A stretch of 56,529 nt of DNA from NCBI GenBank assembly GCA_022571295.1, contig JACZYA010000003.1:1-56529 (forward strand), given 5' to 3'. The notes under the pieces are model-generated. The model did not search any database and was not told the DNA's origin. It worked only from the letters and a program-made list of their open reading frames with translations. The position numbers and the translations under genes were made by a program. Numbering within the stretch: position 1 is the stretch's first letter; each line of letters begins with the position of its first letter. Source of the DNA: Acidobacteriota bacterium (GTDB taxonomy: Bacteria > Acidobacteriota > Terriglobia > Acidiferrales > 2-02-FULL-67-57). Shown here in pieces: positions 33,984 through 51,296 of this stretch.

Positions 33984-34016
33984 CCTGTCCTGAGCCCCGC
34001 GAAGCGGGCCGAGGGA
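33984..34016 (+). repeat. 33-nt hairpin mini-element E1
   Basis: CCTGTCCTGAGC-CCCGCGAAGCGGG-CCGAGGGA inserted in the codon G^AC. Confidence 0.8.
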
Positions 34017-34031
34017 ACATCCTCCCGCCCG

Positions 34032-34103
34032 CTTGTCCCGAGCTTGCCCTGCTTGTCCCGAGCAACGTCGAGGGGAGCGTCAGCGAAGGGCGAATGCGAG
34101 GTA
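34032..34103 (+). repeat. Three nested 24-nt hairpin mini-elements E2[E3[E4]]
   Basis: E4=34052-34075 CTTGTCCCGAGCAACGTCGAGGGG; E3=CTTGCCCTG+AGCGTCAGCGAAGGG; E2=CTTGTCCCGAG+CGAATGCGAGGTA. Confidence 0.8.
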
Positions 34104-48984: not shown

Positions 48985-49539
48985 CTACTTTTTCGCGCTT
49001 GCTTTTGGTGCCGGGGAACGAATGCGGAAGGTAGGAGTCGAAGTCCAGTGCATTTTCTTGCCGTAGTGTTGCCTGATTTGCTCTAGGTCAAGCTTGAGGA
49101 ATTCGCTCGCGTCTCCGATGTCTTTGGTTCGCCAGTAGGACACGTGGACTTTGAACTTCGACGGTTGGGCAAAGCTCACGCGGAAGACAACCGAGTCGCC
49201 CGGCTCCAAGGCGGCGGCGCGGAAACGGGCGCGGCCGTGGGTGGAATACACCCATCGGTCAGCGCGAAAAAAGAACTTCCGGCGGCGACGCTCGTAGATG
49301 GGCAGGCCGGGCAGCCGGCGTTTCTGCGCGGTGCGGGCGCCGCGTCGGCGGACTTCGGTGAGGAAGTAAATGGGCGTATCGCCCCGATTGACAAGGCGCA
49401 CTTGGATGGGCTGATCAAGTGCATAGGCGCGGCTGTTTTCAACCAGCTCCAGACGAGCCGGGCCGCGCGTGAAAGGCCAAGCGACAGCGGCCACCAGCAA
49501 GACCGCCGAGAAGCAGACGTTGGCAACCCGAGGGCGCAC
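48985..49539 (-). CDS. Hypothetical exported basic protein
   Basis: 184 aa; hydrophobic N-terminal segment; beta-strand pattern (IQVRLVNRG, LEPGDSVVFRV, FKVHVSYW). Confidence 0.6.
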   Translation of the reverse strand: MRPRVANVCFSAVLLVAAVAWPFTRGPARLELVENSRAYALDQPIQVRLVNRGDTPIYFLTEVRRRGARTAQKRRLPGLPIYERRRRKFFFRADRWVYSTHGRARFRAAALEPGDSVVFRVSFAQPSKFKVHVSYWRTKDIGDASEFLKLDLEQIRQHYGKKMHWTSTPTFRIRSPAPKASAKK

Positions 49540-49714
49540 GGGGGCATTCTAGCATCGCGCCTGCGGGCTGTGCACAAGAAAGAAGAGTAGGTGCGCAGTA
49601 GGCGGGAAACCGAATGTACAAGAGGCTGGTTGAGGACTCGAAGTTAGCAAAGCGGTCGTAGCGACAACTCTTGCGAACCTGCTCAAGCGCCTGCCGAACC
49701 TGCCCTAGTTGGCA

Positions 49715-49720
49715 TATAAT
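49715..49720 (+). promoter_or_regulatory. -10 box of the tRNA-Leu promoter
   Basis: Perfect TATAAT 25 nt upstream of the tRNA; weak -35. Confidence 0.55.
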
Positions 49721-49745
49721 CAAAAGCCCCGGCCTAGGGTTCGTG

Positions 49746-49832
49746 GCGGAAGTGGCGGAACTGGTATACGCGCAGGACTTAGAATCCTGTGGCCGCAAGG
49801 CCGTGTGGGTTCGACTCCCACCTTCCGCACCA
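49746..49832 (+). tRNA. tRNA-Leu (anticodon TAG)
   Basis: GCGGAAG/CTTCCGC acceptor stem, CAGGA-CTTAGAA-TCCTG anticodon arm, long variable arm GGCC-GCAA-GGCC, GGTTCGACTCC T-arm, encoded ACCA. Confidence 0.97.
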
Positions 49833-49855
49833 AAATTTCCGTAGGAAATTTTGCC

Positions 49856-50182
49856 CTGAGCGAGCGCAGCGAGTCGAAGGGCCATCTTCCTCCCGGTTGG
49901 TGTTGTTATCTTTTGCTTTGCGCTGATCGCAGTTACTACTGCGGAATTACCAGCAATCTTGGCCAGCGTCTTCGGGACCACGCCTCCGGCAGGGGTTCCG
50001 GCTACACCAAGGGTATCAAGCCCGTTGCATTACTCTGGTACGAATGTCACGAGGATCGCTCCTCTGCCGCCAGGCGGGAACGACAATTGAAGAAGTGGAG
50101 CCACGCCAAGAAAAAAGCGCTAGTGGAAGGATGCTTACGGTTTAAGAGTGCGAATACTCGTTTGTGGCTTTCCCTCGACTAG
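49856..50182 (+). CDS. GIY-YIG nuclease (YhbQ/YazA, UPF0213-like); start codon uncertain
   Basis: CYLLLCADRSYYCGITSNLGQRLRDHASGRGSGYTK...ARRERQLKKWSHAKK. No in-frame ATG; CTG 49856 and GTG 49805 (inside the tRNA) are the nearest options. Confidence 0.8.
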   Translation: MSERSESKGHLPPGWCCYLLLCADRSYYCGITSNLGQRLRDHASGRGSGYTKGIKPVALLWYECHEDRSSAARRERQLKKWSHAKKKALVEGCLRFKSANTRLWLSLD

Positions 50183-50194
50183 GCTCGGGACAAG
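50171..50194 (-). repeat. 24-nt mini-element E6, inverted, supplying the GIY-YIG stop codon
   Basis: Minus strand CTTGTCCCGAGCCTAGTCGAGGGA, 20/24 identical to E4 at 34052-34075. Confidence 0.8.
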
Positions 50195-50306
50195 CTCCTC
50201 CCACCTTCCGCACCAAAATCTCCGCAGGAGATTTTGCCCTGAGCGAGCGCAGCGAGTCGAAGGGCCTCCTACGGGCGACGGGGTTAGGTTCCTGCTGCGT
50301 TCATTG

Positions 50307-51176
50307 CTATTGCGGGGAGTGCGCGGTGAGGGCCGCTTCCCAGCCCAGGATGGCTTTCTTGCGCGCCGGGCCCAGGCCGTAGTTCCCGCTCTGGCCGGAT
50401 TTTCGGATCACCCGGTGGCAGGGAATCAGGAAAGGAATCGGGTTCTGGCCCACGGCATTGCCGACCGCGCGCGCGGCCAGCGGCATCCCGATGTGGCGGG
50501 CAATGTCCTGGTAGGTCACCACCGAGCCTGCCGGGATACGCAGCAGGGCTTCCCAGACTTTGAGTTGGAAGTTGGTTCCCTGAAAGAACAGGTGCAGCGG
50601 GGCCGGCTTTGCCTTCCCGAACGGAGCGAAGACTCGGCGCACCAGCGCGCGCGTACCGTTCGAGTCTTCTGTGAAGCGCGCGCGCTTCCAGCTTTTCTTC
50701 AGCGCAGCCAGCATGCGCTTGCGCCCCGAAACCGGACCGAGCGAAAGACCGCAAACCCCGCGCTCGGTGACGGCCAGCAGGCACTCCCCGAACGGGCTGG
50801 GGTGGAAGCCGTAGGTGATGCTCAAGCCGGTGCCCTTGTTCTTGAACTCGCCCGGCGTGACCGCTTCGCAGGCAACAAAGAGGTCGTGCAGGCGGCCCGG
50901 GCTGGAGAGTCCGGCTTCGTAGGTAACATCCAGTACGCTGCGCGATTCCGCCAGCAGTTGCTTGGCATATTCCTTGGTGAGGAATTGCAAAAACCGCTTG
51001 GGGCTGATGCCCACCCAGCGCGCGAACAGGCGCTGGAAGTGGAACTCGCTCACCCCGACGCTGCCGGCAATTTCCTTCAAGCTGGGCTGCTGCGGGAAAT
51101 TCTTTTCCAGGAAAAGGATGGCTTGCTCCACTCGCCGGTAGTCCGCCGCCGACTGCGCGTATCCGTTTGAGGCCAT
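50307..51176 (-). CDS. AraC-HTH / methylated-DNA-protein-cysteine methyltransferase fusion (Ada-like, no N-terminal Zn domain)
   Basis: PSLKEIA...HFQRLFARWVGISPK, GTNFQLKVW, ARAVG, IPCHRV. Start at 51176 (GGAGG RBS) or 51191. Confidence 0.92.
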   Translation of the reverse strand: MASNGYAQSAADYRRVEQAILFLEKNFPQQPSLKEIAGSVGVSEFHFQRLFARWVGISPKRFLQFLTKEYAKQLLAESRSVLDVTYEAGLSSPGRLHDLFVACEAVTPGEFKNKGTGLSITYGFHPSPFGECLLAVTERGVCGLSLGPVSGRKRMLAALKKSWKRARFTEDSNGTRALVRRVFAPFGKAKPAPLHLFFQGTNFQLKVWEALLRIPAGSVVTYQDIARHIGMPLAARAVGNAVGQNPIPFLIPCHRVIRKSGQSGNYGLGPARKKAILGWEAALTAHSPQ

Positions 51177-51296
51177 CTGGCTGCCCTCCATGCTTCGTCC
51201 TTCAGCATAGATGCTCCCGGTGGGCACGACCACCCGAATCTTGCGCTTTTTGGCCTTTTTATTTCACGGCAGGCGGCTGGCACGGGGCGTCTTTCT

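What the first reader, a model, noticed from the sequence alone, without database searches (positions are those of the whole stretch)
49815..50266. Integrase-free 383-bp cassette: tRNA-Leu 3' duplication, hairpin mini-elements and a GIY-YIG nuclease
Seen: a 69-bp direct repeat (49815-49883, 50198-50266) made of the last 18 nt of tRNA-Leu (CTCCCACCTTCCGCACCA), a hairpin, and a TTGCCCTGAGC...TCGAAGGG element. It encloses only a small GIY-YIG ORF, which ends inside an inverted copy of the same element family. Established: tRNA 3' duplications usually mark integrase att sites, and REP palindromes flank their cognate nuclease gene in RAYT/REPtron loci. Inference: this is a REPtron-like module with a GIY-YIG enzyme in place of an HUH transposase, docked at a tRNA end, and it is a candidate mobiliser of the mini-elements seen near hisS.
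Basis: partly seen in the sequence, partly recalled or inferred. Interest (0 to 1): 0.85.

Follow-up and report, generated by a model that had tools for sequence, protein, structure and literature searches.

The report
GIY-YIG nuclease cassette at tRNA-Leu
A 383-bp insert carrying a tiny nuclease gene sits at the end of a leucine tRNA gene and rebuilds that end, and it is one example of an apparently undescribed family of such inserts found at tRNA and tmRNA genes in many bacterial phyla.

Summary
A 69-nt direct repeat (66/69 identical) brackets a UPF0213/YhbQ-type GIY-YIG ORF just after tRNA-Leu(UAG). Inverted copies of a hairpin element ("e") lie at both ends of the ORF.

It is not a one-off. 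In the same order (Acidobacteriota, Ca. Acidiferrales), 29 of the 30 best homologue loci lie directly after a tRNA, a tmRNA, or a fragment of one. They share one layout: RNA gene, hairpin, e(+), GIY ORF, then a pseudo T-arm interrupted by e(-) plus the acceptor 3' strand.

Across phyla, 45 of 68 homologue loci have a same-strand tRNA/tmRNA within 450 nt. Of those 45, 28 carry a partial copy of that RNA gene on the far side of the ORF; the reverse-strand control gave 0 of 45.

A same-genus genome lacks the cassette at this site. Seven of 49 tRNA/tmRNA genes in this genome carry such 3' duplicates. The ORFs are under purifying selection.

The e element has 54 strict copies here (0.014 expected) and shows base-pair covariation. 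It flanks GIY genes but not the genome's six RAYT-like genes.

Best reading: a site-specific selfish GIY-YIG cassette. The mechanism is inferred, not shown. The REPtron-like idea is only partly supported, because e copy number does not track GIY presence.

The parts
49746..49832 (+). Intact tRNA-Leu(UAG) with encoded CCA. Its last 18 nt (49815-49832) open the left repeat.
   Evidence: ARAGORN; Rfam RF00005 62.3 bits
49815..49883 (+). Left copy of the 69-nt direct repeat: tRNA 3' 18 nt, hairpin, e(+).
   Evidence: family D1
49833..49853 (+). Hairpin h*. Its stem variant differs from the right copy and from the same-genus genome by a compensatory pair.
   Evidence: DNA fold z = -5.86
49854..49883 (+). 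e(+), long form: P1 GCCCT/AGGGC, GA-rich internal loops, central GCGCAGC mini-hairpin.
   Evidence: covariation of the P1 closing pair CG 15 / UA 12 with 0 broken in 27 relatives
49898..50182 (+). UPF0213-type GIY-YIG ORF (domain from Trp at 49898 to stop TAG 50180-50182). No canonical start codon upstream of the first catalytic Tyr.
   Evidence: Pfam; PDB; conserved Y4, Y14, R24, H28, E61 in alignment; ORF list
50160..50170 (+). Copy-like stretch of the T-arm 5' strand (GTTTGTGGCTT, against CGTGTGGGTT in the tRNA). It encodes the ORF tail.
   Evidence: exact 9-11 nt matches to the host tRNA in relatives L015, L017, L038
50171..50194 (-). e(-), short form, inverted. It sits where the T-loop of the displaced tRNA 3' copy would be.
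50198..50266 (+). Right copy of the 69-nt repeat: displaced tRNA 3' 18 nt, hairpin h', e(+)'. The hairpin variant matches the single copy in the same-genus genome G001.
33984..34100 (+).
   Evidence: hits at 33984, 34032, 34052

Best explanation
The 383-bp unit is one copy of a family of very small, site-specific selfish cassettes built around a ~90-aa UPF0213-type GIY-YIG nuclease gene.

Such cassettes settle inside the transcription unit of a tRNA or tmRNA gene, on the same strand. The RNA gene stays intact because its terminal segment is present twice. In type A the order is intact gene, cassette, pseudo 3' copy. In type B it is pseudo 5' copy, cassette, intact gene.

Here the cassette follows the CCA of tRNA-Leu(UAG). 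Its parts in order are hairpin, e(+), GIY ORF, a T-arm-like stretch, e(-) in the T-loop position, and the 18-nt acceptor/CCA end. It lies upstream of an older hairpin + e(+) remnant.

Shown: the architecture, its recurrence at many different tRNA/tmRNA genes and in several phyla, presence/absence among close relatives, GIY-less remnants, tandem arrays, purifying selection on the ORF, and the strand-specific conserved structure of e.

Inferred:
- The GIY-YIG enzyme makes the breaks that let the cassette enter a tRNA gene, in a homing-like or staggered-cut way.
- The inverted e hairpins are its cis sites.
- Expression rides on the tRNA promoter.
- The dispersed solo e copies in hairpin loops are non-autonomous relatives.
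For: Architecture in the order. Of the 30 best homologue loci in 301 genomes, 29 follow a tRNA (12), a Leu fragment (1), a tmRNA (11) or a tmRNA fragment (5). e(+) is upstream in 26/30 and e(-) at the ORF end in 21/30. The stretch before e(-) follows the host T-stem: GTGGGTT for Leu, GGGGGTT for tmRNA and Trp, GCGGGTT in L034.

Empty and filled sites.
- Same-genus G001 has tRNA-Leu + hairpin + e(+) once, with flanks 90-94% identical.
- Naive tRNA-Leu(tag) sites without e: L004, L006, L008-L011.
- Naive tmRNA sites L128-L130 against filled L059 in one genus.
- GIY-less remnants L015 and L017; tandem arrays L025, L036, L044, L046, L050.

Own genome. 7 of 49 tRNA/tmRNA genes have their last 16 nt repeated downstream and 0 of 49 upstream. 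There are 7 small GIY genes. Three lie at tRNAs and three lie between inverted e17 copies.

Across phyla. 45 of 68 loci have a same-strand tRNA/tmRNA within 450 nt. That is 46 same-strand against 3 opposite-strand genes in 59,166 bp near the ORF, and 1 + 1 in 129,235 bp further out. 28 of the 45 carry a partial copy on the far side of the ORF; the reverse-strand control gave 0/45 and the shuffle maxima 3/45.

Tree. A Leu clade (100/99) spans three families. His and Gly cassettes are sisters (100/98). A Planctomycetota tmRNA cassette is nested among acidobacterial ones (98/99).

Selection. dN/dS is 0.07-0.23 in 11 of 11 pairs.
Against: - No activity or movement has been observed.
- This copy has no canonical start codon before the first catalytic Tyr.
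- The protein is only the catalytic domain. It lacks the DNA-binding domain of characterised GIY-YIG homing enzymes.
- The intact tRNA still holds any target that lies within the tRNA, so simple homing logic does not explain self-immunity.
- GIY clades stay on one target over dS > 1 with low dN/dS. That also fits a long-resident, host-useful gene.
- e copy number does not follow GIY presence.
- Homologues in 2 of 2 phage records examined are not next to tRNAs.
- The single empty site at this locus can be read as gain here or as loss in G001.
Confidence: 0.55

Rival explanations
1. First reader's REPtron analogy in its strong form. The GIY-YIG protein is the dedicated mobiliser of the e mini-elements genome-wide, as RAYTs are for REPINs, and the tRNA position is incidental docking.
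For: - e flanks GIY genes in inverted orientation.
- The six RAYT-like genes have other REP families at their flanks.
- e has a conserved strand-specific fold: 51 of 54 copies keep the P1 closing pair, and alifold covariation agrees.
- e copies sit in loops of other hairpins: 13 of 53 have an outer stem of 6 bp or more, against 6.4% of 2000 random places.
- A GIY-less inverted pair lies at C113.
- e-like inverted repeats flank GIY genes in two alphaproteobacterial MAGs.
Against: - Copy number does not track the gene. G006 has 11 copies and G014 has 82, with only UvrC-size hits; G018 has 4-5 small GIY genes and 0 strict copies. G014 is only 59% complete.
- In other phyla the cassettes carry unrelated small hairpins instead of e.
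- The gene is multi-copy and patchy, unlike RAYTs.
Confidence: 0.3
2. The cassette is moved by, or is the remnant of an island moved by, a tyrosine integrase acting in trans at the tRNA T-loop/3' end. The GIY gene is cargo.
For: A repeat running from the T-loop region to the 3' end of a tRNA or tmRNA gene, with a T-arm copy at the far junction, is the known signature of integrase islands at these genes. That islands use the tmRNA gene is stated in PMC11915505 (passages read); the sublocation rule is recalled. tmRNA and tRNA-Leu are classic sites.
Against: - No integrase lies in the cassette or its syntenic flanks.
- The unit is about 0.4 kb in 29 of 30 order loci, with the same gene next to the RNA gene.
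- Type B cassettes duplicate the 5' part.
- The putative far junction is interrupted by e or hairpins in its T-loop.
Confidence: 0.12
3. The gene is a resident host function tied to tRNA/tmRNA loci, such as RNA processing, or guarding these integration hot spots with a structure-specific nuclease. The duplications are side products of local rearrangement, not of element mobility.
For: - Purifying selection in 11 of 11 pairs.
- Same-strand placement in the RNA gene's transcription unit.
- Long fidelity of clades to one target.
- A GIY-YIG/TrmH fusion led Dunin-Horkawicz et al. to suggest an RNA role (PMC1564403, passages read).
Against: - Patchy presence within genera: g16 54/94, g14 29/101.
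- Naive sites in close relatives.
- Remnants and arrays.
- Many different target genes, and a cross-phylum nested cassette.
Confidence: 0.15
4. Assembly artefact or chance repeat.
For: MAG contigs often break near these repeats: many GIY matches lie 100-700 nt from contig ends.
Against: - Independent runs hold contigs across the interior and the right junction.
- The same layout occurs in dozens of genomes.
- The two repeat copies differ by a compensatory pair.
Confidence: 0.02

Closest known systems
Free-standing GIY-YIG homing endonuclease genes (e.g. phage T4 segB in the tRNA gene cluster; PMC2330249, abstract in search listing only)
   Same: A GIY-YIG nuclease gene stands alone beside or inside conserved RNA genes. 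It is present or absent between relatives and is selfish-looking.
   Different: - The protein here is only ~90 aa, with no DNA-binding module.
- The target gene is kept whole by a duplicated terminal segment.
- Hairpin modules lie at both ends.
- The setting is chromosomal and spans many phyla.
- Cleavage is untested.
REP/REPIN-RAYT systems, 'REPtrons' (PMC3116915, PMC3337134; abstracts in listing only)
   Same: A small nuclease-type gene is flanked by inverted copies of a hairpin repeat that is also dispersed in the genome.
   Different: - The enzyme is GIY-YIG, not HUH/Y1.
- The gene is multi-copy and patchy.
- It is tied to tRNA/tmRNA genes.
- Copy number is not coupled to the gene in the genomes sampled.
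- Real RAYT-like genes with their own REPs coexist in this genome.
Genomic islands integrated by tyrosine integrases into tRNA/tmRNA genes (Islander-type; PMC11915505 passages; details recalled)
   Same: The targets are the same: tmRNA and the tRNA 3' part. A direct repeat restores the gene.
   Different: There is no integrase, the size is 0.4 kb, a 5'-duplicating variant exists, and the distal copy is interrupted in its loop.
[quoted passage not shown]
   Same: The T-loop of tmRNA is invaded by a selfish element that may carry a homing nuclease gene.
   Different: No ribozyme was found (Rfam). The functional gene is uninterrupted, and the interrupted copy is a pseudo-copy.
Stand-alone bacterial Slx1-like / UPF0213 GIY-YIG proteins (YhbQ, BH0048 1zg2, EF2693 1ywl; PMC1564403, passages read)
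   Same: Same protein family by sequence (E 6.6e-11 and 1.2e-9).
   Different: That work treats them as minimal, mainly vertically inherited nucleases of unknown role. No tRNA adjacency or flanking repeats appear in the passages I read.
Casposon and CRISPR-spacer integration (PMC5137440, PMC4046053; listing abstracts only)
   Same: This is a works-like comparison only. Integration next to tRNA genes or structured repeats, with staggered joining, duplicates a long target segment.
   Different: The enzyme there is Cas1 with a defined 14-15 bp or repeat-length duplication. Nothing here shows such chemistry.

Membership tests
GIY-YIG superfamily, UPF0213/YhbQ-like stand-alone branch | GIY-YIG domain with the two Tyr, Arg, His and Glu of the active site | tested here: met
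   PF01541 E 1.8e-20; 1zg2 and 1ywl; Y4, Y14, R24, H28, E61 invariant or near-invariant in 14 sequences
GIY-YIG superfamily, UPF0213/YhbQ-like stand-alone branch | Expressed, complete protein | tested here: inconclusive
   No ATG/GTG/TTG before the first Tyr in this copy. Relatives such as L059 and L028 have ATG starts.
REPtron (RAYT + REP) | HUH/Y1 transposase gene | tested here: not met
   The ORF is GIY-YIG. The genome's six PF01797 genes lie elsewhere.
REPtron (RAYT + REP) | Gene flanked by inverted copies of a dispersed hairpin repeat | tested here: met
   54 strict copies
REPtron (RAYT + REP) | Single-copy, vertically inherited gene whose presence goes with the repeat population | tested here: not met
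   7 small GIY genes in this genome; patchy within genera; no coupling of copy number
Homing endonuclease gene | Sits in or next to a conserved target, with filled and empty alleles | tested here: met
Homing endonuclease gene | Insertion destroys the enzyme's recognition site | tested here: inconclusive
   The intact tRNA persists. Only the displaced copy is interrupted. The site is unknown.
Homing endonuclease gene | Site-specific cleavage of the empty allele | not testable with these tools
   needs biochemistry
Integrase-type tRNA/tmRNA genomic island | Integrase gene within the element | tested here: not met
   The 314 bp between the repeats hold only the GIY ORF. The flanks are host genes syntenic with G001.
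Integrase-type tRNA/tmRNA genomic island | Direct repeat of the tRNA 3' part at both ends | tested here: met
Group I intron in a T-loop | Ribozyme core interrupting the functional gene | tested here: not met
   No Rfam hit other than the tRNA in 49600-50400 at E up to 10. The tRNA is intact.

The most novel reading that the evidence does not exclude
Stand-alone UPF0213-type GIY-YIG proteins are the catalytic engine of a so far unrecognised class of prokaryotic mobile element.
- The cassettes are about 0.3-0.5 kb and are bounded by strand-specific hairpins.
- They enter structured DNA: the loops of tRNA/tmRNA genes and terminator hairpins.
- They make or carry long duplications that keep the target gene alive.
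- They hitch-hike on tRNA promoters.
- They seed lineage-specific families of hairpin mini-elements, in at least a dozen phyla.
Probability: 0.35. Interest if true: 0.9.

Novelty: new variant of a known kind. Interest (0 to 1): 0.8.

Why it matters
UPF0213/YhbQ-like proteins are among the commonest small proteins of unknown role in bacteria, and two were solved by structural genomics without yielding a function.

A strong, strand-specific link to tRNA and tmRNA genes, with gene-restoring duplications, gives them a concrete and testable biology.
- It would add an integrase-free way of colonising tRNA/tmRNA genes.
- It would explain many pseudo-tRNA fragments and contig breaks in metagenome-assembled genomes.
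- It could explain the origin of some widespread hairpin repeats.

A ~90-aa enzyme that recognises structured DNA at defined sites would also interest tool builders.

Tried and rejected
RNA family. Rfam at E up to 10 gave only the tRNA for 49600-50400, so e is no known RNA family.

Fold energy. The fold of e(+) and e(-) as DNA is no better than shuffles (z 0.20 and -1.13). The structure claim rests on covariation only.

Promoters and terminators. The scan found nothing on the + strand, so co-transcription with the tRNA is inferred from position and strand alone.

Copy-number coupling of e and GIY. Not found. G014 and G008 are incomplete, so the test is weak.

Excised or empty forms in reads. 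No joints were reported in the contigs of X1, X3, X7 and X13. Contigs cannot show absence. The left junction was not bridged in listed pieces. A G001-like allele appears as a loose end at 50275 in X1 and X13.

Reverse-transcription idea. An 18-nt tRNA 3' copy recalls retroviral primer-binding sites. I dropped it because there is no RT and the repeat start varies (positions 56-60).

Group I intron. Rejected.

Simple TIR transposon [e(+) ... e(-)]. It does not fit, because host-like T-arm 5' sequence lies inside e(-).

NCBIfam names none of four GIY proteins.

Phages. 23 records hold homologues. The two I opened show no tRNA nearby.

Literature. Searches found no paper linking stand-alone GIY-YIG genes to tRNA/tmRNA duplications or REP-like repeats. 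Supplements are closed and were not seen. Subscription journals are outside the library.

Not used: structure prediction, complex prediction and the large protein searches.
Full report
WHAT IS THERE.
tRNA-Leu(tag) lies at 49746-49832. A 69-nt direct repeat, 66/69 identical and spaced 383 nt apart, starts 18 nt before the tRNA's CCA end and recurs at 50198-50266. Each copy consists of the tRNA's last 18 nt, a 21-nt hairpin and a 30-nt element that I call e(+). The hairpin folds well as DNA (z -5.86).

Between the copies lies one ORF with a GIY-YIG domain (PF01541, E 1.8e-20). Its nearest solved structures are the UPF0213 proteins 1zg2 and 1ywl. Its stop codon lies inside an inverted short copy of the element, e(-), at 50171-50194.

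The three differences between the repeat copies all fall in the hairpin. Two of them are compensatory. This argues against a recent slip or an assembly duplication.

Contigs from other public runs cover 49854-50249 and 49854-50131 / 50104-50250. This copy has no canonical start codon before the first catalytic Tyr.

REFINED ANATOMY.
Just before e(-) the ORF tail reads GTTTGTGGCTT, which resembles the T-arm 5' strand of the tRNA (CGTGTGGGTT). In relatives this stretch matches the host exactly:
- 11 nt in L015.
- 9 nt in L017 and in L038 (Trp).
- CGCGGGTT in L034, where the tmRNA T-stem is GCGGG.
- CGGGGGTT in other tmRNA cassettes.

The displaced 3' copy is therefore a pseudo T-arm with e(-) in its T-loop, followed by the acceptor 3' strand.

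EMPTY AND FILLED SITES.
- The same-genus genome G001 has the same flanks (90% and 94% identity). It has tRNA-Leu + hairpin + e(+) once and no GIY ORF. Its hairpin variant resembles the right-hand copy here. The right copy thus looks like the older resident, and the left copy looks as if it came with the cassette. Gain here and loss in G001 by recombination between the repeats both remain possible.
- G015, from another family, has a filled tRNA-Leu(tag) site. The protein is 63% identical and the right repeat is decayed.
- Six other relatives have tRNA-Leu(tag) without any e downstream (L004, L006, L008-L011).
- In one genus, tmRNA sites are naive in L128-L130, carry only hairpin + decayed e(+) in L127 and L131, and are filled in L059. 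In L059 the insert runs from just after the discriminator base to a second copy of the last 17-18 nt.

THE FAMILY IN THE ORDER.
A protein search of 301 genomes of the order found matches in 142. By genus the hits are patchy, for example 54/94 and 29/101.

Of the 30 best loci:
- 12 follow an ARAGORN tRNA on the same strand: Leu-tag 2, Leu-gag 7, Trp, His, Gly.
- 1 follows a Leu fragment.
- 11 follow a tmRNA and 5 follow a tmRNA 3' fragment.
- 1 follows none of these.

e(+) lies upstream in 26/30, strict e(-) at the ORF end in 21/30, and both in 20/30. The far flanks hold 0 hits in 46,658 bp.

Other forms also occur. GIY-less versions are L015 and L017. A tandem of N-terminal fragments is L016. 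Tandem arrays are L025, L036, L044, L046 and L050, with 68-99% nt identity between neighbours.

THIS GENOME.
7 of 49 tRNA/tmRNA genes have their last 16 nt repeated within 1.2 kb downstream, and 0 of 49 upstream. The seven are Glu-ttc, Pro-cgg, Ser-gct, Leu-tag, Glu-ctc (twice), Gly-gcc and Leu-caa. In six of the seven a hairpin or an e copy interrupts the T-loop of the pseudo-copy (not seen at Pro-cgg), and one pseudo-copy includes 19 nt 5' of the T-loop.

There are seven small GIY-YIG genes:
- C83 and C58 follow tRNAs.
- C140 precedes tRNA-Ser and has the tRNA's first ~21 nt duplicated upstream.
- C94, C226 and C95 lie between inverted copies of a sister element, e17.
- C61 has neither feature.

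OTHER PHYLA.
An alignment-based scan of one genome per species returned 68 loci. It named the lineage Acidobacteriota, Ca. Acidiferrales / Terriglobia.

45 of 68 loci have a same-strand tRNA or tmRNA within 450 nt: 36 upstream and 9 downstream. Among the 30 loci outside Acidobacteriota, 21 do. Within 450 nt there are 46 same-strand and 3 opposite-strand RNA genes in 59,166 bp. Beyond 450 nt there are 1 and 1 in 129,235 bp.

28 of the 45 carry a partial copy of that RNA gene on the far side of the ORF, on the same strand. Type A loci carry the 3' part and type B loci the 5' part. The reverse-strand control gave 0 of 45, and the maxima of 30 shuffles reached the threshold in 3 of 45.

Pseudo-copies often hold small lineage-specific hairpins in D-, anticodon- or T-loops. 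Two Bacteroidota loci have an intact 30-31-nt pseudo 3' copy abutting a terminal hairpin.

THE e ELEMENT.
- Abundance. The strict 18-mer has 54 copies here against 0.014 expected. All 15 genomes of the family have 11-144 copies, the sister family f3 has 0-10, and the reversed control gives 0.
- Structure. The pair closing P1 is T-A in 26, C-G in 25 and mismatched in 3 of 54 copies. In 27 cassette e(+) copies it is CG 15 / UA 12 with 0 broken, and an inner G-Y pair is GC 17 / GU 10. By my reading, long forms replace the central GNA loop by a variable hairpin. G-U pairs and GA-rich loops make the fold strand-specific. Inverted copies at the two ends therefore point to a DNA-level role, which is an inference.
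- Location. Solo copies tend to sit in loops of other hairpins: 13 of 53 have an outer stem of 6 bp or more, against 6.4% of 2000 random places. These hairpins include the REPs that flank the genome's RAYT-like genes.
- Association. 1 of 6 RAYT-like genes has e within 2.5 kb, whereas 4 of 6 GIY loci have e within 100 nt. e-like inverted repeats also flank GIY genes in two alphaproteobacterial MAGs.

EVOLUTION.
The GIY tree has few columns and many open forks, but three features are supported:
- A Leu clade (100/99) spans three families.
- His and Gly cassettes are sisters (100/98).
- A Planctomycetota tmRNA cassette is nested among acidobacterial ones (98/99).

dN/dS is 0.07-0.23 in 11 of 11 pairs.

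HOW IT MOST LIKELY WORKS.
Shown: small GIY cassettes recur inside tRNA/tmRNA transcription units. Each comes with a gene-restoring duplication, hairpin ends, remnants and arrays, and is present or absent among close relatives.

Inferred: the nuclease opens the target at a loop or end of the RNA gene. The cassette is then copied or joined in so that one complete gene remains. The displaced fragment is left as a pseudo-copy that accumulates, or needs, a hairpin in its loop. The ORF is read from the tRNA promoter.

Unresolved:
- I cannot tell homing by repair from staggered-cut insertion.
- I cannot explain how the intact tRNA escapes cutting.
- An integrase acting in trans, or a resident host function, remains possible.

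COMPARISON AND NOVELTY.
The protein belongs to the stand-alone Slx1-like/UPF0213 branch described by Dunin-Horkawicz et al. (PMC1564403). The passages I read mention no tRNA adjacency or repeats.

The nearest systems are free-standing GIY-YIG homing genes, REP/RAYT, integrase islands at tRNA/tmRNA genes, and T-loop group I introns (PMC11915505, passages read). None has this combination of features.

Eight literature searches found no description of it. Supplements and subscription journals were not visible.

CAVEATS.
- Most genomes are MAGs, and misbinning could affect the cross-phylum case.
- Kin are not independent.
- Three illustrative loci rest on unpublished genomes: G007 (L040), G023 (L012/L020) and G027 (L128).

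Noticed in passing
window 49023-49042 (- strand), inside ORF 48985-49539 (-): A 20-nt stretch matches the tRNA-Leu T-loop/3' part in 19/20 positions in inverted orientation, 767 nt upstream of the tRNA. A similar stretch is present in G001. It may be an old remnant built into the C-terminal coding end of a 184-aa ORF.
   Followed up: partly
L013 (G001:C6:6800-13200), about 4.1 kb between the two tRNA-Leu pieces: In the same-genus genome the same tRNA-Leu(tag) carries a ~4.1-kb insert in its anticodon loop, with the first ~40 nt of the tRNA duplicated upstream. The insert holds a weak GIY-YIG-like ORF next to the junction (E 0.0015, below cut-off), a ThsB-TIR-like ORF, a DAC-like ORF (just below cut-off) and an IS630-type DDE_3 transposase. 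No integrase was seen among the six ORFs scanned.
   Followed up: partly
G000 contigs C23, C38, C270, C95, C249, C256: There are six RAYT-like Y1_Tnp genes, several flanked by their own distinct REP hairpin families. e copies are often nested in the loops of those REPs.
   Followed up: partly
G000:C226 11600-12560 (L137): A GIY gene lies between inverted e17 copies just upstream of a carB-like gene. The first 14-17 nt of that gene (ATG onward) are repeated on the other side of the element, like the type B arrangement at tRNAs. 'carB-like' is my reading of the translation, not a search result.
   Followed up: no
G000:C113 3749-3903: A GIY-less inverted pair of e17 copies about 100 nt apart, looking like a miniature derivative of the e17-flanked GIY elements.
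   Followed up: no
G000:C94 28400-29400 (L136): The whole e17-GIY-e17 unit sits between the two arms of an 8-bp outer inverted repeat followed by T-rich sequence. It looks as if it was inserted into the loop of a terminator hairpin (read by eye).
   Followed up: no
many loci: Many GIY matches in MAGs lie 100-700 nt from a contig end. These cassettes and their repeats seem to be frequent assembly break points.
   Followed up: no
window 50307-51233 (- strand): The downstream neighbour is an AraC-HTH + methylguanine-DNA-methyltransferase DNA-binding-domain fusion (Ada-like). It is conserved at 94% identity in G001.
   Followed up: no
L102, L103 (Hyphomonadaceae and Hellea MAGs): GIY genes without a nearby tRNA are flanked by 17-25-nt inverted repeats of e-like sequence (CATCCTGAGG ... 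TCGAAGGAT). L114 and L119 have unrelated 21-nt inverted repeats at both ends.
   Followed up: partly
phage records: 23 phage records, among them large Rhizobium, Ralstonia and Microcystis phages, encode homologues (about 42-47% identity in those listed). In the two regions opened they stand between ordinary phage genes, one near an HNH endonuclease gene, and not next to tRNAs.
   Followed up: partly
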